Shown: positions 4,624 through 61,861 of the stretch, piece by piece
How the letters are laid out: each line of letters begins with the position of its first letter
Numbering within the stretch: position 1 is the first letter of the stretch
IMG/VR virus record: IMGVR_UViG_2645727901_000008
Length of the DNA stretch: 64,000 nucleotides
Strand: one strand, 5' to 3'
Source: a virus
Taxonomy: Duplodnaviria; Heunggongvirae; Uroviricota; Caudoviricetes
Position numbers and translations under genes: made by a program
The notes under the pieces: generated by a model
Told to the model about the DNA's origin: nothing
The model's database searches: none
Seen by the model: only the letters and a program-made list of their open reading frames with translations

Positions 4624-5411
4624 TCGATCACTCCGTTTTGAGTCGTATCAAAATTCCTGGCAGGTATGCAGTAGTAAAGCGAACCAACATGCTGTGTGCC
4701 GTAGCTAAAAATACGGTGCACGTACCACCAGCGGCGGGCTACGCCGTTTACCATCTCTTCATTCCATTCAAGAATTGATCCGACGGGGACGTTATTTGCT
4801 GCAATACGCAGAATCAGAACATCATCGGTTAAGCCATCCTGCTCACCGTCTGCGTCAATCGCATGGAAAGAGTCACGCCCGTCCGGGTTATCCAGCACAT
4901 AAACGATTTCAGGTTCCTGGTAAGTCAGTTCGCGCTGGTTGTTATCCAGTTCAGTGAATGACTCTTCTCCTGTTTCGTCGCTGACTACCCCATATGTGCC
5001 AACATCTGGTCGATATAAGAGAGCCTGAAACGCGTCTGGGCTGGATTCAATAATCAGCATCCAGTCTGCGCGGATTTGGTCGTTAAAGGCTTTATGCCCG
5101 TTATAGCGTGCTTTTAGCTGTGGAGTTGGTTCTCTGCCAGCCAGGGAAGGTGGAAGTATGGCTATATCTGATTCGGCAGCATCCGGAGTAAGGCCAGCGT
5201 TGCTATCAGCAAAATTATCATGGCTATCAGCTTTGGCGGCGGGTTGCTCTTCCAGAATGCTGAATGAATCCGAACCGGTATTGCCATGTTCCGGCGCGCC
5301 TCCTGCATTCGCTTCAATCGGCGCTGGCGTTTCTCTCTGCGTGCTGTCATGTTCTGACTCATTACTTGCCAGGTTTGCATCGTCAGCAAACCATTCGTCA
5401 AAACGGCCCAT
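4620..5411 (-). CDS. hypothetical protein, first gene of the baseplate-like operon
   Basis: ORF runs 4620..5453. Best RBS (GAGGA-N5-ATG) supports the internal start MGRFDEW at 5411. Confidence 0.4.
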   Translation of the reverse strand: MGRFDEWFADDANLASNESEHDSTQRETPAPIEANAGGAPEHGNTGSDSFSILEEQPAAKADSHDNFADSNAGLTPDAAESDIAILPPSLAGREPTPQLKARYNGHKAFNDQIRADWMLIIESSPDAFQALLYRPDVGTYGVVSDETGEESFTELDNNQRELTYQEPEIVYVLDNPDGRDSFHAIDADGEQDGLTDDVLILRIAANNVPVGSILEWNEEMVNGVARRWWYVHRIFSYGTQHVGSLYYCIPARNFDTTQNGVIE

Positions 5412-5482
5412 AAGCATCCTCAAAGGTCGATTTATCAGGTATCGAGGGTGCATTGTCTGGAGATTGTGATTTCAATTCATAT

Positions 5483-5532
5483 CCCAACATGGGACTAAAG
5501 TGCTTTACATTGTCCCATATTGGGACTACTAT
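5483..5532 (+). promoter_or_regulatory. higBA promoter (TTTACA-N16-TACTAT) overlapped by two palindromic operators, TCCCAACATGGGA and GTCCCATATTGGGAC
   Basis: Read from the sequence. The palindromes flank and overlap the -35/-10 elements, as expected for HigA autoregulation. Confidence 0.55.
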
Positions 5533-5556
5533 ACTTTCAGAGAGAAGGAATCTGTG

Positions 5557-5859
5557 ATGAAAATAATTTCGGTAAAAACACTAAGGGATTTCTGGGCGAA
5601 GAATCCCGATGCAGAACAGCCATTAAAGGCATGGGTTGATGAAGCAACAAAGGCTGACTGGAAAAATCCGGCTGAGATCAAAGAACAGTACCGGACAGCC
5701 AGCATCCTTAAAAACAGGCGCGTGGTGTTCAATATTAAGGGAAATGATTACAGGTTAATTGTCGCAATTGCTTATCAGCGAGGATGGATGTTCGTTAAGT
5801 TTATTGGAACACATAAGGAATACGATGCCATTGAAGCGGATACAATAGAACTGGAGTAA
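5557..5859 (+). CDS. higB: type II toxin HigB (RelE/ParE superfamily mRNA interferase)
   Basis: MKIISVKTLRDFWAKNPD...FNIKGNDYRLIVAIAYQRGWMFVKFIGTHKEYDAI shows HigB-family conservation, including the THKEYD motif. Toxin-first gene order. Confidence 0.8.
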   Translation: MKIISVKTLRDFWAKNPDAEQPLKAWVDEATKADWKNPAEIKEQYRTASILKNRRVVFNIKGNDYRLIVAIAYQRGWMFVKFIGTHKEYDAIEADTIELE

Positions 5860-5862
5860 ATC

Positions 5863-6222
5863 ATGAACATTAAACCTATCCGTACAGAACAAGATTATGA
5901 GGCCGCACTGCGTGCGGTCGAACCGATGTTCGATAACGAACCGGAAATGAACACACCGGAAGGCGATTTCTTTGAAGTAATGTGCCTGCTCATTGAAGAG
6001 TACGAGAAAAAGCATTACCCAATTGAGCCACCATCACCTATTGAAGCCATTAAATTCCGTATGGAACAGCAAGGGCTGACCGTGAAGGATCTGGAACCGG
6101 CGATTGGTAAGTCAAATCGAGTTTACGAAGTGCTTAATGGGACACGAAATTTGACGTTACCTATGATTCGTCGTTTACATGCCCAGTTTGGTATTCCACT
6201 GGAAAGTCTGGTTGGTGTTTAA
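5863..6222 (+). CDS. higA: antitoxin HigA (XRE-family HTH)
   Basis: 119-aa protein starting 4 nt after the higB stop. C-terminal HTH-like region LTVKDLEPAIGKSNRVYEVLNGTRNLT. Confidence 0.75.
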   Translation: MNIKPIRTEQDYEAALRAVEPMFDNEPEMNTPEGDFFEVMCLLIEEYEKKHYPIEPPSPIEAIKFRMEQQGLTVKDLEPAIGKSNRVYEVLNGTRNLTLPMIRRLHAQFGIPLESLVGV

Positions 6223-6284
6223 GTTTGGCGGTCTGGAGGACCGCTTTTTATCTAAAATAAAAATTAGAAGGTTTGATAGCTTGT

Positions 6285-7022
6285 ATGGGCAAAAATTCAT
6301 CAACAGAAAACACATCTACAATTGACTCAATCAAGGGCACAATGGATGAAGCCATAAAAGATAAATTATTTAATAAATTATTTGCATATGTGGTGGTTTC
6401 ATTTTTTGTCGTTAATTGGCAAGAAATACTAATTTTGTTTAAATCTAAATATGATATATACACAACACTGTCTATAGTATGGGTAGGGGATAAATATCAA
6501 ATCCCTTATTTTGGAACCTTCATTGTATCTCCGTTTTTAGCTCACTTTGTGATGCCGTTTATATATGGCACTATTGCGTCCATAGTGATGCCTTATATTA
6601 CTATGCGTATATCAAAACTCACTGGTAGAAATTATGCGCAAATAAGATACATTGACCATGAATTTGACTCAGAAGAGAAAGCAAGAGTAAAGGCGTTGCT
6701 GAGAAACCTAAAGAAAAAAGAGGAAGAGCTTTTAAAATTAGAGGAACAAATAGAAGGTCAACAAAAAATACTGAATACAATCGAAGAAAAGAAGAGAGAG
6801 ATTGAGAGTGCCAGAGTGGCTCTGTATCACGGTATAAAAGTAATTGTTGATATATATAAAGCAAAAGATAAAAGGATTTCCACCAAAGAAGATTTTGCCG
6901 ATTTATTAAAAGCAATTGAAGAAAGTGATTTTTATAAAGACACTGGGTTGTGGGGTATTAATAAATTAATAGATGACGTGGAGACAATATATGAGTCTCA
7001 ATCGACATCAAAGGACAAGTAA
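6285..7022 (+). CDS. AT-rich membrane protein with 2-3 N-terminal TM helices and a long C-terminal coiled coil (unknown function; possible abortive-infection/exclusion protein)
   Basis: Hydrophobic stretches FAYVVVSFFVVNW and FGTFIVSPFLAHFVMPFIYGTIASIVMPYI, then a K/E-rich heptad region. Locally low GC. ATG at 6285. Confidence 0.45.
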   Translation: MGKNSSTENTSTIDSIKGTMDEAIKDKLFNKLFAYVVVSFFVVNWQEILILFKSKYDIYTTLSIVWVGDKYQIPYFGTFIVSPFLAHFVMPFIYGTIASIVMPYITMRISKLTGRNYAQIRYIDHEFDSEEKARVKALLRNLKKKEEELLKLEEQIEGQQKILNTIEEKKREIESARVALYHGIKVIVDIYKAKDKRISTKEDFADLLKAIEESDFYKDTGLWGINKLIDDVETIYESQSTSKDK

Positions 7023-9824: not shown

Positions 9825-10448
9825 ATGAAGGATGGTGTAGTGAAGTTAAGGGTTTTAGGGGCCGCGCTCGCGGCTATGTTGGGATGCGTATCTGCTAATA
9901 CTGCCAATGCAACTGCGTTACCTGCACAATTCAGGGCAGGGCAGCAGGTTATGAATAATGCTGGTGGGGATCATTCACAAGCGGCCATTATGGACTTTTG
10001 CAAGAGGGAGGGCATTCCATTACGGCCTGTTGGAACTCAGTTTATTGGTAAAACTGACTTTTGCGTTTTTGCATATACAGCATATCTGACGGACAAAGCT
10101 ATAACAAAAACAGGTTATTCAACCAAAGATACTCTTTCCAGATTAAGTCAGGGATGGCAGCAATTCGAAGTGTATCGCCAGCAAGGATTAGGTGAGTTAT
10201 TGCAACCACTTTTTATGCTTGCGTTGGTGCCCGAGGGGCAGCAATTTTTGGTTAAAAAGGGAATGCTTCGCCAAAGTGATATTGCCGGGTTCGATAGCAT
10301 GATGGCTTATGAGCGCAAACTAACCGAGCAGCGAAATAAAAAACCATCTGCTTCATGTGTGCAAAGTAAAACAGCAGAATACAGTGCAGTAGCCGGGCCT
10401 TTAGCCAAACAAATGGCAGAGCAATGGTGTAAAAAATACGGGCAATAA
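9825..10448 (+). CDS. putative lipoprotein or secreted protein
   Basis: N-terminal signal peptide KLRVLGAALAAMLGC with a lipobox-like LGC. Possible GTG start at 9840 after an AAGGATGG RBS. Confidence 0.45.
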   Translation: MKDGVVKLRVLGAALAAMLGCVSANTANATALPAQFRAGQQVMNNAGGDHSQAAIMDFCKREGIPLRPVGTQFIGKTDFCVFAYTAYLTDKAITKTGYSTKDTLSRLSQGWQQFEVYRQQGLGELLQPLFMLALVPEGQQFLVKKGMLRQSDIAGFDSMMAYERKLTEQRNKKPSASCVQSKTAEYSAVAGPLAKQMAEQWCKKYGQ

Positions 10449-10468
10449 GTTACGCAGCGGAGGCAGAA

Positions 10469-10861
10469 TTGAAAAGATTGACTATTGCTTTACTGGCGTC
10501 TTTCCCTTTGATCGCGAGCGCCGGAAATTTACAAGTTAAGTGCGGTCGGTTTGATATAAAAATCTATCCAGATGCCATATTTCTGAATGGGAATAAGGTT
10601 GATAACGTACACCGAAAAACTAAATCTGACGTAATGAGCTATGTGTTCCAGGAGTATGCGGAGATGGGGGGAACTTACACGCTGTACTCGCTGGATGTTC
10701 CTTCTCGCGGTGATATGACATTATCCCATCAATGGCAGAACGCCGATGGCGAAGCTCTGCGCGAAGTTAAAACAGAAAAATGCGGCACTTTCCATTCTTT
10801 TAAAGGGAAAGTGCCAAATGTTAAATCTGTGCTTGAAAAACAGCGCGCAGGTGATTTTTAA
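10469..10861 (+). CDS. secreted protein (signal peptide), unknown function
   Basis: TTG start after a GCGGAGG RBS. MKRLTIALLASFPLIASA signal sequence. Confidence 0.45.
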   Translation: MKRLTIALLASFPLIASAGNLQVKCGRFDIKIYPDAIFLNGNKVDNVHRKTKSDVMSYVFQEYAEMGGTYTLYSLDVPSRGDMTLSHQWQNADGEALREVKTEKCGTFHSFKGKVPNVKSVLEKQRAGDF

Positions 10862-10883
10862 ACTGCGTTAGCACTTTGAACAT

Positions 10884-10928
10884 GGCGACAACACATCTTG
10901 GTGGCTGCGTTGTCGCTGTATGTTTTTA
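10884..10928 (+). terminator. rho-independent terminator after the secreted-protein genes
   Basis: GGCGACAAC...GTTGTCGC hairpin followed by TGTATGTTTTTA. Confidence 0.5.
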
Positions 10929-10949
10929 TAATATAAAGCATTAAAGTTT

Positions 10950-11567
10950 TCATTTTTGTCGGATCTTTTCCAGCATATTTAATTCATTATCACTTTCTGC
11001 TGCTGAGACGGTTGGCCTCACATTTCCGAAATATTTCCTGTGAGACTCATGACTTATGTATTCACCGACAGTTTCATTCTTGAATATACGAATTTGACAT
11101 ATGCGAGATCCAACAATAAGTTCTACAGGGCTATTCCCATGATTAAATAACTCTAAAGATATACAGCCTCTGTACCCTGGTTGTATCATGGTATTTAATG
11201 AAAGACCAAGCCTTGTATAGCTGCTTCTGGACAATACATCAGCGTAGCAATCTGGTGGCAAACAAACATATTCTAATGTTGTTGCCAGTACCACTTGATT
11301 CGGGTAAACAATGAATCTATCCCCAAGATCTCTCCTTGTTTCCTGGAAAAATGTTCTGATTGGTTGATGAGTATCATTGTTTTTTGATGGAATTAACTCT
11401 ATTGACGGCTTCCTTGTCATAATAGACACTAAAAAATCGTAACCAAGTCTAAGGTCTATGGTGAAGTTCCCAATTTGGTTTTTATTTAGAAGAGGTTCAA
11501 TGAACAACGACTCAGGTTCTTCTGATTCATAATATTGCAGCAATTCAGCTTTGCTTAGGAGATTCAT
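10950..11567 (-). CDS. dCTP deaminase (Dcd/dUTPase-fold) family protein with catalytic residues conserved
   Basis: Alignable by eye to E. coli Dcd: IDLRLGYDF ~ [44 protein letters not shown] ~ [49 protein letters not shown] ~ GWSGCIVLEFYNSG (RSS and the catalytic Glu are retained). GGAGTG RBS supports the MNLLSK start at 11567, which overlaps the upstream stop (ATGA). Confidence 0.65.
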   Translation of the reverse strand: [205 protein letters not shown]

Positions 11568-12637
11568 TGTGCACTCCATTTTTCAAGAATCATTACGTTT
11601 CGAATCGATTTTTCAACCAAATCATTTATAGTTTTTTCTATGGCTTCTTGTGACAACCCAGACCATATACCCGTAGGTTTTTCCCATTCAGAGCATAAGT
11701 ACTGCCAGCTGCTGTTAATAAAAGCATGCATTTCATTGTGGTCGCGAATAACAAAAGGACGCACATTATCAAAAGCTGATTTCACATCAAGCAAAGGTGT
11801 CGGCAATGTCAAACAAGGAGAAATAATCTGCCCACCATTATGTAAGGCTGATATCACAGCATTGAACATGCCAACAACTGGATTTTCCACTTTGTTCAAA
11901 AAGTCGCTTACAATTTTAACTCTATCTTCTGTGGATGGGTGAGTATAGCTTGCAGGATGAGAGCCAGCTAATTTGTATAAGAAATCTACCCCACTTTTTC
12001 CAATAAATTGGGCACTAAATAGATCTGCAAAATATTCTCTGCAATGATTTATCCAAATAACATCAGGTAGATTACTCCATTCTGGTCCAGGAAGTGTGCC
12101 TTTGTCCTTGGAACGATAGTTAAGACAGGCAAGCTCAGAAATACCTTTGCTAATATCAACGAAATGTCCCAATTCGTGATATAAAGGTATAGAGCATAAT
12201 GGTCGTCTTCTGTACATTTCAGGTAATGAAATCTGAATTAATTCGACATCGAATTTGACATTTAAAACTTCGTCAAATAAAGAATACAAATTCTTGTTTA
12301 CAGACTTAAAATAAAACCCATGCATATCTGGAGATAGGGCTGTGGTTATAAGTGTTTTTTCACTTATCCATTTTTTACAGGCATCATTTAAGCAATAGAC
12401 AATCTCGTAGGGAATTTTCTTTGTAGTACTGCCAGTGAAAAAATTAACTGCATCGGTGATAAAAAAAGTACAATCCGCAATTATTTTATCAGCAACATTC
12501 ACATGGTTTTCATAGAGCTTATCCACCGCTTCTTGTAGAACAGCAAGATATTCATGCATGTCTTTAGAAAAATAGGGAGATTCTGATATCTCCCTTAGCT
12601 TATTTCGAACTAATGTAAGTTGTGTAAATGCAAGCAT
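11564..12637 (-). CDS. ImmA/IrrE-family (M78) zinc metallopeptidase-like protein with extra N- and C-terminal regions
   Basis: HExxH (LYHELGHFVD) followed about 27 aa later by HCREYFADLFSAQF, resembling the E..AN.FA..LL third-ligand motif of ImmA/IrrE. AT-rich. Coupled to both neighbours (TAATG and ATGA overlaps). Confidence 0.55.
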   Translation of the reverse strand: MLAFTQLTLVRNKLREISESPYFSKDMHEYLAVLQEAVDKLYENHVNVADKIIADCTFFITDAVNFFTGSTTKKIPYEIVYCLNDACKKWISEKTLITTALSPDMHGFYFKSVNKNLYSLFDEVLNVKFDVELIQISLPEMYRRRPLCSIPLYHELGHFVDISKGISELACLNYRSKDKGTLPGPEWSNLPDVIWINHCREYFADLFSAQFIGKSGVDFLYKLAGSHPASYTHPSTEDRVKIVSDFLNKVENPVVGMFNAVISALHNGGQIISPCLTLPTPLLDVKSAFDNVRPFVIRDHNEMHAFINSSWQYLCSEWEKPTGIWSGLSQEAIEKTINDLVEKSIRNVMILEKWSAQ

Positions 12638-55281: not shown

Positions 55282-56964
55282 TTAATTGCTCATCACAAAT
55301 TTTGCAAAGTTTATTAACTGTTCTGGCGTCCAGTTTTCCGGATCGTCACCGGACGACAACGGCGCGGATTCGTACATACCATGCTCGTTGTTTTGCTCTG
55401 ATTCATTCGCCTTAAACTCTTTGATCATGGTGTTGAGAGTGTCATCGTCGATGTGCAACTGCTCAGTGAACAGATAACGCATAAACGCGTCGCTACCAGC
55501 CAGTTTCGGGTTGTTCTGGATCTGGTCCATAATTTGGGAGATGACAGCAACAAAGTTGGCGCGTGCATCCAGTTCTCGGTTTTCCTCTTCCTGGATAGCA
55601 GTGTTCATTGAGTTGAATTGCACGTCATAAGGGCGGTTTGTTTCGGTGTAAACCTTGCCGTATTTATAAGCGAGGTGAATGTCCAGAAGCCGATAAATAG
55701 TTCGCTGGGCGGCCTGTCTGATCCAGTTCGCACGCAATGCAGCCTGGATAGCAGTTTGCTGCCAGCCGCCTTCTCCAAGCCCTCCGCTCATCTGATCAGC
55801 CCAGCCAAGCATTGTTGCGTCAATGCCGAGGCTTGCAGCAAGCTGCCGGAGGTGAAACATAACGTCTTCGATACCACTGATATCTGCGGGTATGGATTGC
55901 GTATCAATGGTGATGCCGTTCTTCCCGTCTCCCATAACAGGTATCAGATGGTTAAGCACAGTCGGAATAGCGTTGGCATTAATCGACCTTTGCGCCACCA
56001 GGTCACTATGACGCTTCAATGCCTGGCTGACGCCACGCGTATAGTTCGCCGCATTAACCGGGTCCAGTGTGTTCGTCGTAAGAGCAATCAGGCGGTCAAT
56101 TTTGGCTGCATTATTTCGCGTTGATTTCAGCGCGGCGAGCGAAGCACATAAATTAAGGTAAGGTTCATAGCTGTATTCCAGGAATGAAGTTCCGTAATTC
56201 TGCGTCTCCATTAACGGCTTATCAGCCTGATCACTTAACAGTGAATACCCTTTTGTACCGTAGCTAACCGGAATAACCTTATGCTGCGGCGTCCAATACG
56301 GGTTTTTCATGGAAACAAGATTCCACGGTTCGGTTATTACCCTGCGCAAACTATGCGTATCCAGAATGTAATCACCACTAAAACCGACCAGCTGGCTACC
56401 GCGATAAAATTCCTGGACGAAGTGTGGAAGAGTGTAATAACTGGATTCAATGCCAGTTATCCCTCTGCCCTGTTCAGCATAAGGTCGGACATAAGACACC
56501 CCAAAGATCGCCATAATCATGGCCCATGAAGGAAGTCCGTCATTAATCATTGCCCCCAAATCAGCTGTTAACTCTTCACACCTACTTACCGCCTCGGCAT
56601 CGGAACCATCTTTTGGCGAAAGCATGAATGCCAGCCCGGTTTTCTTTGAAGGCGCAAGCGCATGTGCAATATGAATGTTTAAAGCCGTTGAGATAGTCGG
56701 GCTTTTAGCCATCGTTTCCAGGATGTTGTACTTTTGCAGGCGCTCGCCGGGCAGTTCAGCGGATAAAGAAATTGAATCTGCTGCACTCGTCATGCCATCG
56801 CTGTTGCTACCCAGGATGCCTGGACGTAAAGCGGACAGGCCGGAACGAGCAACGACACTATGCCCGCTCGTAAAAACGACCGGATCGGCGGGCGTAACAT
56901 CACCACCGTTGAAGGCTTTCTTCAATGCCGACAGAAAGCCTTTGTTTTTGTCTTTCGTTGCCAT
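55282..56964 (-). CDS. putative portal protein (Prt-like)
   Basis: 560-aa protein upstream of the protease-like gene in the head morphogenesis cluster. Confidence 0.4.
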   Translation of the reverse strand: MATKDKNKGFLSALKKAFNGGDVTPADPVVFTSGHSVVARSGLSALRPGILGSNSDGMTSAADSISLSAELPGERLQKYNILETMAKSPTISTALNIHIAHALAPSKKTGLAFMLSPKDGSDAEAVSRCEELTADLGAMINDGLPSWAMIMAIFGVSYVRPYAEQGRGITGIESSYYTLPHFVQEFYRGSQLVGFSGDYILDTHSLRRVITEPWNLVSMKNPYWTPQHKVIPVSYGTKGYSLLSDQADKPLMETQNYGTSFLEYSYEPYLNLCASLAALKSTRNNAAKIDRLIALTTNTLDPVNAANYTRGVSQALKRHSDLVAQRSINANAIPTVLNHLIPVMGDGKNGITIDTQSIPADISGIEDVMFHLRQLAASLGIDATMLGWADQMSGGLGEGGWQQTAIQAALRANWIRQAAQRTIYRLLDIHLAYKYGKVYTETNRPYDVQFNSMNTAIQEEENRELDARANFVAVISQIMDQIQNNPKLAGSDAFMRYLFTEQLHIDDDTLNTMIKEFKANESEQNNEHGMYESAPLSSGDDPENWTPEQLINFAKFVMSN

Positions 56965-57048
56965 GAATCACCGCGAATTGTTTCCAGTTTCGCGGCAGCA
57001 TAATCAGTATGTGATTTGATAGGAGAGTTTTATTGGTGCTGTTAATGA

Positions 57049-57381
57049 TTACTTACACGCTTCCCTGCCCACATAGTCAGCGATGGAACCACTTACAATC
57101 CCCCCCATTTTGGGATCAGGTTTTGAATTTTTCATCTGTTCAAGCGTCTCCCCAGAACCAAGATACTTCACTTCATTTGTCATGCAATTATATATTCTCT
57201 TCGAATATGCTGTCCCAGATGGGCCTTCCCTTTTTGTAATGATAGTTTTATATTCACCTTCACGACCAATATCCAGCACTGTATAAGTAGCTTTTGGATC
57301 AGAAGGGATTTTTATCTTATAGGGCGCAGCACAAACTGATGCAGAAGCTAATAAAGCACAAACCAGGATTATATTTCTCAT
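57049..57381 (-). CDS. small secreted protein (signal peptide), AT-rich
   Basis: MRNIILVCALLASASVCAAPY signal sequence. GGAG RBS. Confidence 0.45.
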   Translation of the reverse strand: MRNIILVCALLASASVCAAPYKIKIPSDPKATYTVLDIGREGEYKTIITKREGPSGTAYSKRIYNCMTNEVKYLGSGETLEQMKNSKPDPKMGGIVSGSIADYVGREACK

Positions 57382-57425
57382 AACTATACTCCATGTTATA
57401 AATTATCAAAGCTAAGTAAGTAAAA

Positions 57426-57983
57426 CTAATCTGGATCAACAATAAGTTGTGAAACCTTCGCTGCAAGTCTTATATAGCGTTCAGCTTCATTTCTGGTGAT
57501 TTCAAAATCCAGAAAGTGCGCGGCTTCATTTCTTAGCGAGCGAAGCCGTTTTAACAGCAAAGCAGCGGAATCTTCAAGTTTTCCTTCTTGAATCAACCAG
57601 TCAATGAATAGTTCTGGATTCCGTTTCGGCTTTAACCCTCCCTGTATAAAACCAGAGCGCCCGGCAGCCTCCTCTACCATCAACCATGACTCCATAATAG
57701 CAGCTCTAGGTGAAAAATCAGCAATTCTCTCTAATTGTGCGATTTTATTTATATATTCAGAGTTATTATTACCATTGTTAATATTTTTATTCCCAACTGA
57801 TGCATCTGTTGCTAATACTTCTGCTGCGGTTAGTCCCGCATTAAACTCAGCTTCAGCTGCTCCAATCTTGAATCTACTCAGACGTACTATTAACTCCTTA
57901 ATATCAACCCCATACTTATTAACAAACCACACAAACACCAATGGCCATGCAAGAGCTGAAACCAAATCTGTAAATGATGACAT
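57426..57983 (-). CDS. N-terminal TM-anchored protein with a DUF4145-like C-terminal helical domain; AT-rich cargo gene
   Basis: TM LVSALAWPLVFVWFV. C-terminus LLKRLRSLRNEAAHFLDFEITRNEAERYIRLAAKV resembles the DUF4145 R-N-x-x-A-H core. GAGGA RBS. Confidence 0.4.
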   Translation of the reverse strand: MSSFTDLVSALAWPLVFVWFVNKYGVDIKELIVRLSRFKIGAAEAEFNAGLTAAEVLATDASVGNKNINNGNNNSEYINKIAQLERIADFSPRAAIMESWLMVEEAAGRSGFIQGGLKPKRNPELFIDWLIQEGKLEDSAALLLKRLRSLRNEAAHFLDFEITRNEAERYIRLAAKVSQLIVDPD

Positions 57984-58108
57984 CGGTTATCCTCATTCAT
58001 TATATTCTCAGCTAGTTTACATATTATTAAACAGGAACAAAAATGAATTATGCGCCCATCTTCAGATATGTTATGAACGCACAGAAAGAGCATTAAGTTA
58101 CATTGATG

Positions 58109-59485
58109 TTACCCAACAGAGGTTGACTCAAACATAGAAAAAATTAACCCTTTACCTTCGCCAAACTCAGTCTCAATTTCATCAGAAACGGCAGATAAAA
58201 TGCTACGCAGATCGACATCTCCGCCGCCGAACATATCGCCTAACGCTTGTTGTTGGTGAATAAGTTCATCGTTAATTTTTTGCGCCAGTTTCTTGAAAGC
58301 GGCCCCCATTCGCTTAGCGCTTCGGTTGTTGGCAACAATAAACAGAGCAAGCGCTTCTGCTTCCGGAGTGCTATCTCCAAACAATCCACGCTGTGCGATC
58401 ACCTCTTCTACTGCCTGACCGTTATCTTTTGCTTCACGAACAAGGTTAATTGCTTCCTGGAGTGCTGCTATCGCCTGTGTATCCAGGCCATTAACCTGCT
58501 CTATACCGTCCACTAAGCCTGTTACTGCGTCATGGTGAGCGTCGCCAGACAGCGACTGCATTTGCGCAAAATCGCTGGCTGCCGTATTTAATGCGGTCAG
58601 GATATTACGCATTTCCGGATCTGGCTCTTCCGACACTAGCCGAACAAGCCTTTCATCCTTGTACGCTTTGGCAAAAATTGCATTCTGGATGCGATCGATA
58701 AGCTGTTTCGTGGGACGCCCATCGGCAGTAAGCAAGCCTGCCGTCGCTGTATCGCCAATTTCGCGCAAAAACGCACGAATAAACGCATCATTGGACCGCG
58801 CCAGCAGATTTCCATCATCTGAAGGATTAAATAGCGCCATGACGCTCTCAGTGAGAAATTGCGCATCCGCATACGCTTTTTCACTTGCTGCCATCTCTTG
58901 CAGATCGCTAATGTTTGAATCGCGGGCAAATTGAGCGCGGTCTACATCTGTGAGTCTTTCTCGCACTAGTACGGGCATAGACATTTGCGAAATTTCGTCA
59001 GGATTCAGACCAAACTCTTTCGCATGGTCGATCAGGTACTGGCGATACTCATCCGCCTGTCCTTGCTCATAGGCACGCCAGATACCCATACTCCTTCCGT
59101 TGCCGGATTCAACAACGTTGTCCGGACCAACTATCGGCGCTCCGTGGCTGCTCATACCGGAATCCGTTAATTGTGCCGGGCGTAAATTGGAGGCAATACG
59201 GTTAACCTGGAGTTTGCTGGATAGCCGGGTACGATCTCGTGGTTGGAGTTCTTCCGGGAAGGCCGGGTTAATCATACCGTCAAGGTTGTTCGAAATGATC
59301 AGACTGCTGGCATCAACGACCTTAAAAGCCGTCTTTACCTCTGCACCTTTGCTGGTGACTACGTAGCTACTTCGCCCCAGGCGTGTTTCTTTCCTCTCTA
59401 ATGAAGAAACCAGAGCAATGACGCTGTTAATATCTGCGGCCTCGGAAAGCGCAGAAGTAACTGATTTGTTCAAAATACACTCCAA
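58109..59485 (-). CDS. putative internal head protein of the Dar antirestriction/head cluster (DdrB-like position)
   Basis: ORF starts with TTG in the track. GGAGTG RBS favours a TTG at 59473. No early ATG. Confidence 0.35.
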   Translation of the reverse strand: MECILNKSVTSALSEAADINSVIALVSSLERKETRLGRSSYVVTSKGAEVKTAFKVVDASSLIISNNLDGMINPAFPEELQPRDRTRLSSKLQVNRIASNLRPAQLTDSGMSSHGAPIVGPDNVVESGNGRSMGIWRAYEQGQADEYRQYLIDHAKEFGLNPDEISQMSMPVLVRERLTDVDRAQFARDSNISDLQEMAASEKAYADAQFLTESVMALFNPSDDGNLLARSNDAFIRAFLREIGDTATAGLLTADGRPTKQLIDRIQNAIFAKAYKDERLVRLVSEEPDPEMRNILTALNTAASDFAQMQSLSGDAHHDAVTGLVDGIEQVNGLDTQAIAALQEAINLVREAKDNGQAVEEVIAQRGLFGDSTPEAEALALFIVANNRSAKRMGAAFKKLAQKINDELIHQQQALGDMFGGGDVDLRSILSAVSDEIETEFGEGKGLIFSMFESTSVG

Positions 59486-59567
59486 CTATAGAGAAAGCTG
59501 TGAGTGTAAAAAGAGTGTGATTTATGTGAGAACAGAGAAGTGAAAGGGGCATTTCGCCCCCTTTTGA

Positions 59568-59936
59568 TTACCCGGCATAACCGTTGGCTTTCACCCAGCT
59601 TATGGTCTGTTCTTTAGCCTGCTCCAACGTAAGGAACTCGCCAACATAGTTTGAGATCCCACGCAGCGCATCAATAAATTCCATTTGTGTGGACTTTGTG
59701 AACACACCGCCCAGGAAGTCAGTCACTATCTTAGGGACTTCATCTACAACAGGATCAGTCTGTTGTTGCGGTTCCGCTGCCGGTTGCGCGGCAGTCCCCA
59801 GGCCCAATTTCAGCATCACATCAACAATCTGCTTACCAATGGTGACGCGTTGCAATACTGGCGCAGTTTTCTGCGCCTGCATTAGATCTGATAGCTCTTT
59901 ACCTAATTTCAGGCGGTCTAAAACAGAGATGGTCAT
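59568..59936 (-). CDS. small head-associated protein (DdrA-like position)
   Basis: 122 aa. TAATG coupling to the upstream gene. Confidence 0.4.
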   Translation of the reverse strand: MTISVLDRLKLGKELSDLMQAQKTAPVLQRVTIGKQIVDVMLKLGLGTAAQPAAEPQQQTDPVVDEVPKIVTDFLGGVFTKSTQMEFIDALRGISNYVGEFLTLEQAKEQTISWVKANGYAG

Positions 59937-61861
59937 TAAGCACCTCCCTGCTGAATTTCAGCCAGAATGTTGATCAGGTAGTCAACTGCTGCACCCACAG
60001 TGGCTTCGTTCTCGTCGTATCGACCTGCACTGATTAGAGCATTTGCTGCTTCCTGTACATGATCAAGTTCAGTACTGATGACCGTCAGATCGCGGGGTGT
60101 AAACTGCTCCGGAACGGATTTCAGGTACTCCAGCGCTTTATCTGCCTCCTGATCAGCTTCACTTGCTGATTCACCAGCTTCTTCTGGCTCCGGCTCCTGT
60201 TCTGTTGCTGGTTGTGGTTGTGATTCCGGATCAACCACATGCTCTGTTTTTACTTCGATTGAATGATTTTGAAGGGCGTTATACACGTCCATAATGAAAA
60301 GGTTCTCCCCATCACCAAGTGGATACGCCACGTTTGGAAACGCTTTGCGGAAAAGAATTTTCACTTGCGCCTTGAATGTTTTCAGGTCACTGCCAAACAG
60401 GTCTACATAGCCATCAATATGTTTCGACATGCTGGACACAACCAATTGGCCTGCAAAATCTTTCAGCTCATCTTCATCAGGAAGATAGAGCAACTCGTAC
60501 TGGCTGACTTCTTCATCTGTCAGTTTACGGTCATACGTAATGATACCGTGACGAGCATATTCGTAATACTGATCAGCCTGGTCAGGACGATCAATCACGG
60601 CTTTATTTCCATCCGGCACAGCACCAACACCAGCCGGGCGAGATTGAAGTGCATAGTGGTATTTACCTACATCCTGGCTCTCTTGTTGTGATACTGGGTT
60701 CGTCTCGGGGTCTGTCTGTGGTGGTTCGGAGTCTTCCTGCTGGCCTGGTAACACATCAACTTTATATTTATCTGCGTTATGCTCTCGGTAGGCTTTAAGT
60801 AATTTGGTTGCAGCATCTGCCAAACTGCCTCCTTTGACAGCACTGGCATCAATACTGAATTTACCTTCAGGTGCTACTATCGTAACGAAATTGTCACTGC
60901 CGGACGTGACATAATTAACTTCAGCGCCATTATCCAGCACTGTTTTTCCGTCAATGGCAAGATTATGTTTTACATGTCGCAGCTGGTCACTAAACGCTCG
61001 CTCTTTCGTTTTTTCACCTTTAGCAGACAACAATTTATCGCGTTTTGCTTGTAATTCCTCGTTGATGGCTTTCTGGGCATCAAGTTTTTTTTGCATCTCC
61101 GTAAGAGCAGCACGCTTTTCAGTCAGCCCACGTTGCGCAACTTCCACCTGATCAATCATTATTGACCGTTCTTCTGCCAGTTTATCTGCTTCATTGAGAT
61201 AACTCTCAATATCTGCCTTCATTTTGTCCTGGCGCTCTTTTGCTTTCTTAAATTTTTCGCTGTTACGCTCAATCAAATTAGATAGCGCCTGGCATACCTG
61301 GCTTAAAGAAACATCTCTCCCACCAATCGGGGCGACAACGTGAGTTACGTTACGTTTATTAAGTAAAAACTGAAATGCAACAAGCTCGTCGTTACTCTTT
61401 ATTTTTGCCCCGTCAGATGTTGGAGAGTGGAAAATTATGCTTGTACTCTGCCCGTCAGTAAGCGGTATCTGCGCGGTCAAAACAGGGATATTAGCTACCC
61501 GACGTACACGACCGATAATCGCACCACCAATACAATTACGTCCATTTTCATCGGCCCCGGCTTCATCAGTCCCTGCCATAATATTCGTACCATTCAGGCC
61601 ACGATTCAGCGCACGGACGAAAGCTCGCATTGTTTGAGCTAACCGAATTCTGGTTGTAGTTATGGACTCAAACATAGCTTCGTCAGACACAACCAGAATT
61701 TCATTGCCCATATAGGCAAGCTCAATATCTTCTAAGGTCGCCGCCTCAAAAATCAGGTCATCTTCGCTTAATTCTTCTGAAGACCAGCGACTTGGCATAT
61801 AGCCGGGGATCGTATCAGCAAAAGTAGACTGAATATTAATTCGTAAAGGATTGTTAATCAT
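59936..61861 (-). CDS. large internal head protein (DarA-like position and size)
   Basis: ORF 59936..61900. GGAGGA-N5-ATG supports the start at 61861. Central coiled coil. Acidic Glu/Asp-rich C-terminal region. Confidence 0.4.
   Translation of the reverse strand: MINNPLRINIQSTFADTIPGYMPSRWSSEELSEDDLIFEAATLEDIELAYMGNEILVVSDEAMFESITTTRIRLAQTMRAFVRALNRGLNGTNIMAGTDEAGADENGRNCIGGAIIGRVRRVANIPVLTAQIPLTDGQSTSIIFHSPTSDGAKIKSNDELVAFQFLLNKRNVTHVVAPIGGRDVSLSQVCQALSNLIERNSEKFKKAKERQDKMKADIESYLNEADKLAEERSIMIDQVEVAQRGLTEKRAALTEMQKKLDAQKAINEELQAKRDKLLSAKGEKTKERAFSDQLRHVKHNLAIDGKTVLDNGAEVNYVTSGSDNFVTIVAPEGKFSIDASAVKGGSLADAATKLLKAYREHNADKYKVDVLPGQQEDSEPPQTDPETNPVSQQESQDVGKYHYALQSRPAGVGAVPDGNKAVIDRPDQADQYYEYARHGIITYDRKLTDEEVSQYELLYLPDEDELKDFAGQLVVSSMSKHIDGYVDLFGSDLKTFKAQVKILFRKAFPNVAYPLGDGENLFIMDVYNALQNHSIEVKTEHVVDPESQPQPATEQEPEPEEAGESASEADQEADKALEYLKSVPEQFTPRDLTVISTELDHVQEAANALISAGRYDENEATVGAAVDYLINILAEIQQGGA

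What the first reader, a model, noticed from the sequence alone, without database searches (positions are those of the whole stretch)
57049..57983. AT-rich two-gene insertion inside the head/portal-Dar cluster: secreted small protein plus a TM-anchored DUF4145-like protein
The surrounding genes (portal-like 55282..56964, Dar-like 58109..61861) have backbone composition. These two genes are markedly AT-rich and carry their own strong RBSs. One has a signal peptide. The other combines an N-terminal TM helix with a C-terminal helical domain resembling DUF4145 (RNEAAH core). That domain is frequently appended to abortive-infection and restriction-related proteins. Phage-plasmids often carry defence cargo at such hotspots.
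Basis: partly seen in the sequence, partly recalled or inferred. Interest (0 to 1): 0.55.

Follow-up and report, generated by a model that had tools for sequence, protein, structure and literature searches.

The report
Accessory two-gene cassette in phage D6
A 1.1-kb foreign, AT-rich cassette found in only a minority of D6-type phage-plasmids carries a membrane-anchored HEPN (DUF4145) RNase-like gene and an unrelated small exported protein; both look like anti-competitor cargo from known kinds of protein, so this is a sound but fairly ordinary finding.

Summary
The window is a phage D6-like P1-type phage-plasmid (99% identical to D6). Window 57018..58127 (1110 bp, GC 38.6% against 47.5%) is a clean indel. 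About 100 related plasmids have 51 bp there, with ddrB abutting the portal gene. D6, 14 PLSDB plasmids and 9 of 5426 complete E. coli genomes carry the insert at 99% identity or more.

The 110-aa protein (orf23) is Sec-exported, has an invariant Cys pair and has a Protein E/PseM-like fold. Its homologs sit directly upstream of tape-measure genes or downstream of CI-like repressors in other prophages. The two genes never co-occur elsewhere (0 of 91 loci).

Most likely these are two independent anti-competitor genes: an abortive-infection RNase and a periplasmic exclusion-type protein. Function is inferred, not shown. This is a new member of a known kind.

The parts
57018..58127 (.). Inserted cassette (1110 bp, GC 38.6%) between the 3' end of ddrB and the portal gene. 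It replaces 51 bp of the empty site, including the last ~12 codons of ddrB.
   Evidence: blastn breakpoints against L002 and L003; about 100 plasmids have the identical empty span of 1092 bp. DdrB C-terminus ...MFENSTALNNCSTEN* becomes ...MFESTSVG*. GC statistics; no terminal direct or inverted repeats at the junctions.
57426..57983 (-). orf24: 185-aa membrane-anchored HEPN (DUF4145) protein. Layout is hydrophobic helix, then a long juxtamembrane helix, a variable Asn-rich linker, and the HEPN domain.
57918..57974 (-). Predicted N-terminal transmembrane helix (residues ~4-22) with the near-invariant W13-P14 signature. Predicted topology is N-out, C-in.
   Evidence: KD 1.63 and a positive charge bias after the helix. 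W13 and P14 conserved in at least 90% of 49 sequences. PMC3710099 section 15 describes this WP helix fused to DUF4145.
57438..57758 (-). HEPN/DUF4145 domain (residues ~76-182) carrying the invariant SPRAA..E.W..E block (residues 91-104).
57516..57533 (-). R151-N-E-A-A-H156, the HEPN Rx4H putative catalytic motif.
   Evidence: Read. R151 invariant, N152 and H156 conserved in at least 90%. The motif definition comes from PMC3710099 and PMC13017515.
57049..57381 (-). orf23: 110-aa Sec-exported small protein. It has a beta-sheet plus C-terminal helix, an invariant C66/C109 pair and no Pfam family.
   Evidence: (pLDDT 91.7).
57325..57381 (-). Signal peptide of orf23 (residues 1-19, probable SPase I cleavage after V-C-A). 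No conserved lipobox.
   Evidence: KD 1.85. N-termini are variable and hydrophobic, and C17 is not conserved; pLDDT 61-66 for residues 1-20 against ~98 for the rest.
57984..58108 (-). AT-rich 125-bp spacer upstream of orf24. It holds the SD GAGGA (57990-57994), a perfect TATAAT (57999-58004) with a weak -35, and a second sigma-70-like site (58074..58047). It may contain the cassette's own promoter. This is unverified.
   Evidence: No P1-type Lpa late-promoter box (AAGTNACTT-N4-TANNNT) on the minus strand here.
58109..59485 (-). ddrB (ddrB-ParB domain). Upstream backbone gene whose 3' end was remodelled by the insertion.
   Evidence: PF18763 E=1.9e-42..
55282..56964 (-). prt portal gene. Downstream backbone gene that must be transcribed through the cassette or from within it.
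   Evidence: no terminator-like site in 56800-58300.

Best explanation
Window 57018..58127 is a horizontally acquired accessory cassette. It is fixed in one sublineage of phage D6-type P1-like phage-plasmids. It sits at the variable junction between the dar (antirestriction/head) operon and the portal gene. It carries two unrelated cargo genes that were joined only here.

(1) orf24 encodes a single-pass inner-membrane protein with a short N-out tail and a cytoplasmic C-terminus. Its cytoplasmic domain is a DUF4145-type HEPN domain with an intact Rx4H site. I infer that it is a stand-alone abortive-infection or competitor-exclusion effector. In this model it is held inactive at the membrane and is activated by an infection-linked cue, either a membrane or envelope perturbation or a phage protein. 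Activation probably works through HEPN dimerisation. The enzyme then cleaves RNA (tRNA, rRNA or mRNA) and stops translation.

(2) orf23 encodes a Sec-exported, disulfide-bonded periplasmic protein with a Protein E/PseM-like fold. It is a recurrent temperate-phage moron. I infer that it acts in the envelope, most likely as a superinfection-exclusion type factor against incoming phage.

Shown here: the insertion, the architectures, the family memberships, the folds and the genomic contexts. Inferred: RNase activity, the trigger, defence, expression in lysogens and the role of orf23.
For: Insertion.
- A clean 1110-bp versus 51-bp indel.
- Present in D6 and 14 of 120 PLSDB plasmids, and empty in about 100.
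- Present in 9 of 5426 E. coli genomes, always on plasmids of 89-96 kb.
- GC3 of 0.31-0.32 against ~0.5 in the flanks.
- Other cargo occupies the same junction elsewhere.

orf24.
- Family alignment shows invariant R151 and near-invariant N152, H156, W13 and P14.
- 40 of 49 members hit PF13643 and 20 hit HEPN_Swt1.
- AF2 pLDDT is 80.8.
- The architecture matches the WP-TM + DUF4145 group of Anantharaman 2013.
- DUF4145/HEPN proteins are experimentally proven defence RNases: RAZR, BxaP, Ishtar and HepS.
- Papers citing Fillol-Salom 2022 mention a PICI-encoded 'HEPN-TM' system.
- Homologs lie in cargo positions. One is between the primase and the capsid module of Klebsiella/Raoultella satellite islands. 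One is beside an integrase in a Salmonella island. One is at a Serratia prophage end after an HNH gene.
- There is no conserved partner gene in 84 loci, and integrases and transposases are the commonest neighbours.
- The family is large and uniform: 614 clusters at E<=1e-30, all about 180-210 aa.

orf23.
- 479 homolog clusters, nearly all about 110 aa, none with a Pfam family.
- A confident model.
- BFVD hits include a phage 'Surface-adhesin protein E'.
- The gene sits 44 nt upstream of the tape-measure gene in 8 Enterobacterales prophage loci, and directly after a CI-like repressor in Pseudomonas prophages.
Against: - No experiment exists for either protein. The PADLOC library has no model matching orf24 or its family.
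- This sequence's own DUF4145 score is below Pfam's gathering cutoff.
- The hydrophobic helix is short (~17 residues, KD 1.63), and its topology is only predicted.
- The cassette lies co-oriented inside a late operon and has no convincing sigma-70 promoter: five promoter-like sites were found against 4.2 expected by chance. Expression in lysogens, which prophage-borne defence needs, is therefore unproven.
- A constitutively made RNase would also need a way to spare D6 itself.
Confidence: 0.55

Rival explanations
1. The two genes form one two-compartment system. The periplasmic orf23 protein senses an incoming phage or envelope damage and signals through the membrane helix of orf24 to switch on the cytoplasmic HEPN RNase.
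For: - The genes are adjacent, co-oriented and 44 nt apart, with the same GC and GC3.
- They were acquired together and are always found together in D6-type plasmids.
- Anantharaman 2013 proposed that WP-helix HEPN proteins respond to cell-surface stimuli.
Against: - 0 of 91 other loci with an orf24 homolog have an orf23 homolog within 6 kb, and 0 of 10 orf23 loci have an orf24 homolog.
- orf24 relatives have no conserved neighbour.
- orf23 relatives have their own fixed contexts, before the tape measure or after the repressor.
- Only ~3-5 residues of orf24 would be exposed to the periplasm, which leaves little to bind.
Confidence: 0.07
2. orf24 serves the phage-plasmid itself rather than defence. 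It could be a late-expressed host-RNA-degrading or lysis-timing factor tied to the neighbouring holin/antiholin operon. Alternatively it could be a toxin that stabilises the plasmid prophage.
For: - The cassette is embedded, co-oriented and without terminators, in the lydA-lydB-hdf-darA-ddrA-ddrB-prt-pro late cluster. It should therefore be transcribed late in D6's own lytic cycle.
- HEPN toxins occur in toxin-antitoxin modules.
Against: - About 88% of D6-like plasmids lack it and are presumably viable.
- No antitoxin-like partner is present: there is no MNT gene, and the downstream gene product is exported.
- Relatives sit in satellite and island cargo slots and not in lysis cassettes.
Confidence: 0.15
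3. The HEPN domain of orf24 is non-catalytic. It would be a membrane-tethered regulator or scaffold, as in the MtlR/YggD-type HEPN-like proteins.
Against: R151 is invariant, and N152 and H156 are conserved in at least 90% of sequences across distant phyla. The top structural hit and the Pfam matches are to bona fide HEPN families, including Swt1, RiboL-PSP, HepT and Csm6.
Confidence: 0.08
4. orf23 is not an exclusion factor. It would be a host-interaction or cell-wall factor: either a Protein E-like adhesin or serum-resistance moron, or a PseM-like peptidoglycan-acting protein.
Against: - There is no Pfam Adhesin_E match for orf23, and only 1 of 41 relatives matches, at E=0.085.
- There is no lipobox for surface anchoring.
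- orf23 lacks the C-terminal helices that form the PseM dimer and active site (110 aa against 186 aa).
- Identity is 7-10%.
Confidence: 0.2
5. The cassette is inert passenger DNA with no current function.
For: It is rare (9 of 5426 E. coli genomes), shows no phenotype so far and has no recognisable promoter.
Against: Both ORFs are annotated as intact genes in every listed carrier. Both belong to large families with strongly conserved motifs. Both have good ribosome-binding sites.
Confidence: 0.05

Closest known systems
WP-signature transmembrane helix + DUF4145 HEPN proteins (Anantharaman et al. 2013, Biol Direct 8:15; PMC3710099)
   Same: The architecture is identical: a single N-terminal hydrophobic helix with conserved Trp-Pro, followed by a cytoplasmic DUF4145-type HEPN domain with Rx4H. 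I regard orf24 as a member of this group.
   Different: That group was defined only computationally and was proposed to act in 'stimulus-dependent RNA degradation'. No member has been tested as far as the held literature shows. I did not compare orf24 directly with their Vibrio cholerae example.
RAZR / PD-T7-4 (zinc-finger + DUF4145 HEPN abortive-infection RNase; PMC13017515)
   Same: It is a single-protein system whose DUF4145 domain is a HEPN RNase. The catalytic Arg and His are required. It acts by abortive infection through RNA cleavage.
   Different: RAZR has an N-terminal Cys4 zinc ribbon and is activated by assembling around phage ring proteins. orf24 has no cysteine at all and has a membrane helix instead. 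No PADLOC model matches it.
HepS (Gifsy-1 prophage single HEPN abortive-infection protein; PMC13043305) and Tha (S. aureus prophage HEPN; PMC11087260)
   Different: HepS and Tha are soluble and are triggered by tail proteins. There is no membrane anchor, and sequence similarity is not significant (E=0.2).
PICI-encoded 'HEPN-TM' defence system (Fillol-Salom et al. 2022, Cell 185:3248; known to me only through citing papers)
   Same: It combines a HEPN domain with a transmembrane element, is carried by phage-inducible chromosomal islands and is reported to give anti-phage defence. orf24 homologs of 54-55% identity sit in the accessory slot of Klebsiella/Raoultella satellite islands.
   Different: From memory it may be a two-gene system, with the HEPN protein and the TM protein separate. 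Identity with orf24's family is therefore untested.
Haemophilus influenzae Protein E (PDB 3zh5) and P. aeruginosa PseM/TdeM (PDB 9m3l; PMC12494544), for orf23
   Different: Identity is only 7-10%. Protein E is a lipoprotein adhesin. PseM is a 186-aa dimeric muramidase toxin with extra C-terminal helices. orf23 has neither a lipobox nor those helices, and no Pfam match.
Phage morons and superinfection-exclusion genes placed in tail or immunity regions (e.g. HK97 gp15 before the tape-measure gene, lambda rexAB after cI; recalled, not checked here)
   Same: orf23 homologs occupy the same two slots: immediately upstream of the tape-measure gene and immediately downstream of the CI-like repressor.
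   Different: There is no sequence or fold relation to those proteins. HK97 gp15 is an inner-membrane protein, whereas orf23 is predicted to be soluble in the periplasm. The analogy is positional only.

Membership tests
HEPN superfamily / Pfam DUF4145 (PF13643) | Significant match to the PF13643 profile | tested here: inconclusive
   orf24 itself scores E=7e-4 and 20.0 bits, below the gathering score of 23.1. However, 40 of 49 aligned family members match PF13643 (best E=3.3e-7), 20 match HEPN_Swt1 and 9 match HEPN_RiboL-PSP. NCBI annotates D6 orf24 as a DUF4145 domain-containing protein.
HEPN superfamily / Pfam DUF4145 (PF13643) | Conserved Rx4-6H motif | tested here: met
   R151-N-E-A-A-H156. 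R151 is invariant, and N152 and H156 are conserved in at least 90% of 49 sequences.
HEPN superfamily / Pfam DUF4145 (PF13643) | All-alpha HEPN fold | tested here: met
HEPN superfamily / Pfam DUF4145 (PF13643) | RNase activity | not testable with these tools
   Needs biochemistry.
WP-TM + DUF4145 HEPN group (Anantharaman 2013) | Single N-terminal TM helix with strictly conserved Trp-Pro | tested here: met
   Residues 3-21 have KD 1.63. W13 and P14 are conserved in at least 90%. The group is described. Membrane insertion itself was not tested.
WP-TM + DUF4145 HEPN group (Anantharaman 2013) | HEPN domain C-terminal to the helix and cytoplasmic | tested here: inconclusive
   The domain order is met. 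The cytoplasmic location is inferred only from the positive-inside charge bias (5 K/R against 2 D/E after the helix).
RAZR / PD-T7-4 | N-terminal Cys4 zinc-ribbon domain | tested here: not met
   orf24 contains no cysteine (sequence). There is no PADLOC hit at E<=1.
HEPN-MNT type II toxin-antitoxin | Adjacent minimal nucleotidyltransferase (antitoxin) gene | tested here: not met
   The neighbours are ddrB and the exported orf23. No conserved neighbour appears in 84 loci.
PICI 'HEPN-TM' system (Fillol-Salom 2022; DefenseFinder FS_HEPN_TM) | Match to that system's protein models and gene composition | not testable with these tools
   The paper is not held, and the models are not in the available libraries. 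Only positional support exists: homologs lie in satellite-island accessory slots.
Adhesin_E / Protein E (PF16747), for orf23 | Profile match and lipoprotein signal | tested here: not met
DUF2511 (label given by one source to a relative of orf23) | Profile match to DUF2511 | tested here: not met
   None of 41 members matched DUF2511 at E<=1. The label appears on a single UniRef entry.
Sec-exported protein (orf23) | N-terminal n/h/c signal peptide with a small -3/-1 residue cleavage site, and a mature domain with paired cysteines | tested here: met
   M-R-N, then a 13-residue hydrophobic core, then V-C-A|A. The pattern holds across the family, and C66 and C109 are invariant. No dedicated signal-peptide predictor was available.

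The most novel reading that the evidence does not exclude
The WP-helix HEPN protein is a new class of single-protein immune sensor that reads the state of the inner membrane itself, for example phage genome injection, pinholin or holin action, or depolarisation. It would convert that signal directly into RNA cleavage. In D6 it would be paired with a periplasmic factor, giving the lysogen a two-layer barrier (envelope exclusion plus abortive infection) from a 1.1-kb cassette lodged inside a late structural operon.
Probability: 0.12. Interest if true: 0.65.

Novelty: new member of a known kind. Interest (0 to 1): 0.33.

Why it matters
If orf24 is an active defence RNase, three things follow.
- It would give an experimentally tractable member, in a classical E. 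coli phage, of a large family: 614 clusters at 50% identity across many phyla. That family has been predicted since 2013 to couple membrane signals to RNA degradation and has not been characterised in the literature I could read.
- It would show that P1/D6-type phage-plasmids carry anti-competitor cargo inside their late morphogenesis operon.
- It would raise the question of how the carrier phage avoids self-intoxication, as solved differently by HepS and Tha.

The orf23 family has 479 clusters and no Pfam entry. It recurs next to tape-measure genes and repressors, and is a candidate new periplasmic exclusion factor.

None of this changes current concepts. It extends known ones.

Tried and rejected
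- P1-type late promoter upstream of orf24. I first thought AACTAGCT-N5-TATAAT resembled the Lpa box. The annotated P1 late promoters (LPpro, LPlyz, LPdar) show the box is AAGTNACTT-N4-TANNNT. No such site lies on the minus strand near the cassette.
- lydA/lydB equivalence. I suspected the two genes might replace the P1 holin/antiholin pair. D6 has lydA and lydB upstream of hdf, so this is rejected.
- Mobile-element signatures. There are no terminal direct or inverted repeats and no target duplication at the junctions.
- 'Diverged copies' in the Salmonella sp. Sa1423 plasmids (91-94% identity). These records are riddled with fragmented ORFs, so the divergence is probably assembly error. I did not use them.
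- Profile hit of the orf23 family to PDB 6xi1 (E=2e-9). It is a 19-residue motif repeated four times, with each copy insignificant and no fold support. I treated it as spurious.
- The RasGEF hit (2ije) for the orf24 profile (E=0.065) was ignored as chance.
- DUF2511 and Adhesin_E membership for orf23 are not supported by profiles.
- PADLOC and NCBIfam gave nothing useful.
- PHROGs returned only self-families of unknown function.
- The afdb50 fold library was unavailable.
- The Cell 2022 HEPN-TM paper and the P1 genome paper were not held.
Full report
**Identity of the window and check of the observation**

The region 56900-58200 is 99.2% identical to Escherichia phage D6, a P1-like phage-plasmid. 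It is 99.2-99.7% identical to a dozen ~90-kb E. coli and Salmonella plasmids. In D6 the two ORFs are orf23 (110 aa, 'hypothetical') and orf24 (185 aa, named 'DUF4145 domain-containing protein' by NCBI).

The local gene order on the minus strand is lydA-lydB-hdf-darA-ddrA-ddrB-[orf24-orf23]-prt-pro.

The ORFs are at the stated coordinates. Their composition differs from the backbone:
- Gene GC is 0.40 and GC3 is 0.31-0.32, against 0.49 and ~0.5 in prt, pro, ddrB and ddrA.
- The insert has GC 0.386 against a window mean of 0.475, and 4% of same-size windows are as low.

Both starts have good Shine-Dalgarno sequences.

**It is an insertion**

I compared the window with related plasmids that lack the genes (L002 = AP027688, L003 = CP027309). 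Homology runs up to window 57017 and resumes at 58128. The 1110 bp between these points replaces 51 bp.

The replaced stretch includes the last ~12 codons of ddrB. DdrB therefore ends ...MFESTSVG* instead of ...MFENSTALNNCSTEN*. There are no flanking repeats and no recombinase gene, so the mechanism of insertion is unknown.

The insert's distribution is as follows:
- Of 120 PLSDB plasmids matching the flanks, 14 carry the full insert. About 100 show the identical empty spacing.
- Two further 'diverged' copies are in error-ridden assemblies.
- Among 5426 complete E. coli genomes, 9 carry the insert. It is always on plasmids of 89-96 kb and never on a chromosome.

A few relatives have other content at the same junction:
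- IS200/IS605 tnpA-tnpB.
- A long ddrB plus an XRE-family gene and two small genes, in two plasmids.
- A transposase, an HTH regulator and a DUF3944 gene replacing ddrB.

So the junction is variable and 'hotspot' is defensible. This particular cassette looks like one recent acquisition, since all copies are at least 99% identical.

**orf24**

The protein has a hydrophobic N-terminal segment (residues 3-21, mean KD 1.63) followed by a positively charged stretch. AlphaFold2 with a 49-sequence alignment gives pLDDT 80.8. The model has one long helix (2-60), a disordered Asn-rich linker, and a five-helix C-terminal domain.

Pfam gives DUF4145 at E=7e-4, just under threshold, and HEPN_RiboL-PSP at E=0.009. 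Across the family, 40 of 49 members hit DUF4145, 20 hit HEPN_Swt1 and 9 hit RiboL-PSP.

The alignment shows these conserved positions:
- S91-P-R-A-A, E98, W100, E104, R151, A154 and Y170 are invariant.
- W13, P14, N152 and H156 are conserved in at least 90% of sequences.

R151-N-E-A-A-H156 is the HEPN Rx4H motif.

This matches the first of the membrane-associated HEPN groups of Anantharaman et al. 2013. [quoted passage not shown] They predict the domain to be cytoplasmic and to mediate stimulus-dependent RNA degradation.

The family is large and uniform. There are 614 clusters at 50% identity with E<=1e-30, and the 150 best listed are almost all 180-210 aa and aligned end to end. It spans Proteobacteria, Acidobacteria, Planctomycetes, Verrucomicrobia, Gemmatimonadetes and some Firmicutes.

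**Context of orf24 relatives**

- In Salmonella Typhimurium the 58%-identical homolog lies beside an integrase at the edge of an island.
- In Serratia it lies at a prophage end, 17 nt after an HNH_2 gene and near an integrase.
- In Raoultella and Klebsiella the 54-55% homologs sit between the D5-type primase and the protease-capsid module of int-alpA satellite islands of PICI or cf-PICI type. That is the accessory slot of these elements.

I clustered all ORFs within 3.5 kb across 84 loci and found no conserved partner. The commonest neighbours are integrases (7 loci) and transposases. The gene therefore behaves as a mobile, stand-alone module.

**Precedents**

DUF4145/HEPN proteins are proven defence effectors:
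- RAZR/PD-T7-4 is an abortive-infection RNase whose Arg and His are essential.
- BxaP.
- Ishtar, which acts against plasmids.
- HepS, a single HEPN protein on a prophage that cleaves tRNA anticodon loops.
- Tha.

Two papers cite a PICI-encoded 'HEPN-TM' defence system from Fillol-Salom et al. 2022. I could not read that paper, so I cannot say whether it is the same family.

PADLOC v2 has no matching model. orf24 lacks RAZR's zinc ribbon, because it has no cysteine at all.

**orf23**

The N-terminus is a typical Sec signal: M-R-N, a 13-residue hydrophobic core, then V-C-A|A. The family N-termini vary while the mature part is conserved. C66 and C109 are invariant and there is no conserved lipobox.

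The family has 479 clusters, nearly all of about 110 aa, none with a Pfam domain.

The model is very confident: pLDDT 91.7 overall and ~98 in the mature domain. It consists of an antiparallel sheet plus helices.

The best fold matches are:
- In BFVD, three phage proteins with TM 0.54-0.61, one of them named Surface-adhesin protein E.

These are resemblances of fold only, at 7-10% identity.

The contexts are more telling:
- In eight Enterobacterales siphophage prophage loci the gene sits 44 nt upstream of the tape-measure gene. It follows a variable block of small genes that comes after the tail chaperone.
- In Pseudomonas prophages it lies immediately downstream of the CI-like repressor.

From my own knowledge, which I did not check here, those are the slots of HK97 gp15 and lambda rexAB. 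Both slots hold lysogen-expressed exclusion genes. An exported protein cannot be a virion part, so a lysogenic-conversion or exclusion role in the envelope is the most economical reading. Confidence in this is low.

**Are the two genes a system?**

No orf23 homolog lies within 6 kb of any of 91 other orf24-family loci. No orf24 homolog lies near any of 10 orf23-family loci. Only a few residues of orf24 would face the periplasm. I conclude they are independent cargo joined in this cassette. Their similar GC and GC3 suggest they came from one AT-rich donor. The nearest homologs of each are only ~60-68% identical, so the donor is not in the databases.

**Expression**

No terminator-like site occurs in 56800-58300. 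No P1-type late promoter box lies upstream of prt or orf24. prt is therefore probably read through the cassette as part of the late operon, which means both genes are likely made late in D6's own lytic cycle.

The 125-bp AT-rich spacer upstream of orf24 has a perfect TATAAT (57999-58004) with a weak -35, and a second 9/12 sigma-70-like site. However, promoter-like sites in the region are no more frequent than in shuffles. Expression in lysogens is unproven, and this is the main gap in the defence interpretation.

**Verdict**

Shown: the cassette is accessory, foreign DNA. orf24 is a member of the known WP-helix/DUF4145 HEPN family with an intact catalytic motif. orf23 is a member of an uncharacterised family of exported phage-moron proteins.

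Inferred: defence or exclusion functions are plausible by homology and by position, but they are untested.

The novelty class is a new member of a known kind. Interest is modest (0.33). The value lies mainly in offering a tractable E. coli example of a widespread, uncharacterised membrane-tethered HEPN family.

Noticed in passing
window 5500-6222 (+), in the AT-rich patch ~5350-6400: The ORF at 5500-5859 matches HigB_toxin (PF09907, E=5e-34). The adjacent ORF at 5863-6222 has an HTH_3 domain. Together they look like a HigBA-type toxin-antitoxin pair in another low-GC (~0.36) island of the phage-plasmid.
   Followed up: partly
window 10950-12637 (-), in the AT-rich patch ~10300-12200: A 209-aa dCTP deaminase-like protein (PF22769, E=1e-30) lies directly downstream of a 357-aa ORF with no Pfam match. 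This is another low-GC block that may be nucleotide-metabolism or defence cargo.
   Followed up: partly
window 56971-56995: A perfect 7-bp stem (CCGCGAA / TTCGCGG) with an 11-nt loop lies 7-30 nt upstream of the portal start codon. It is also present in plasmids without the cassette, so it belongs to the backbone. It may be a translational or transcriptional control element for prt.
   Followed up: no
window 58109-58150 (3' end of ddrB): The insertion rewrote the DdrB C-terminus...MFESTSVG* against ...MFENSTALNNCSTEN* in empty-site plasmids. The protein is about 7 residues shorter. Any effect on Dar antirestriction function is unknown.
   Followed up: partly
L113 (CP057742), L114/L115 (CP117014, CP034790), L116 (CP099353): The same ddrB-prt junction holds other content in a few relatives. 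One has IS200/IS605 tnpA-tnpB. Two have a long P1-like ddrB plus an XRE-family gene and two small ORFs. One has a transposase, an HTH regulator and a DUF3944 gene replacing ddrB.
   Followed up: partly
L019-L024, L117, L118 (prophage loci); L015-L018 (Pseudomonas prophages): The orf23 family has a strikingly fixed position. It sits 44 nt upstream of the tape-measure gene, after a variable block of small genes, in Enterobacterales siphophage prophages. In Pseudomonas prophages it sits right after the CI-like repressor.
   Followed up: partly
L008, L025, L026 (Serratia, Pantoea alvi, Salmonella arizonae): The closest non-D6 relatives of orf24 (58-59% identity) share a conserved 175-aa downstream ORF with no Pfam match. 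In Serratia an HNH_2 endonuclease gene lies 17 nt upstream. This may be a small operon variant of the family.
   Followed up: partly
L105, L106 (Salmonella sp. Sa1423 plasmids MK356558, MK356557): These records show the cassette at only 91-94% identity. Their annotation is shattered into tiny ORFs, which suggests uncorrected sequencing errors and not real divergence.
   Followed up: no
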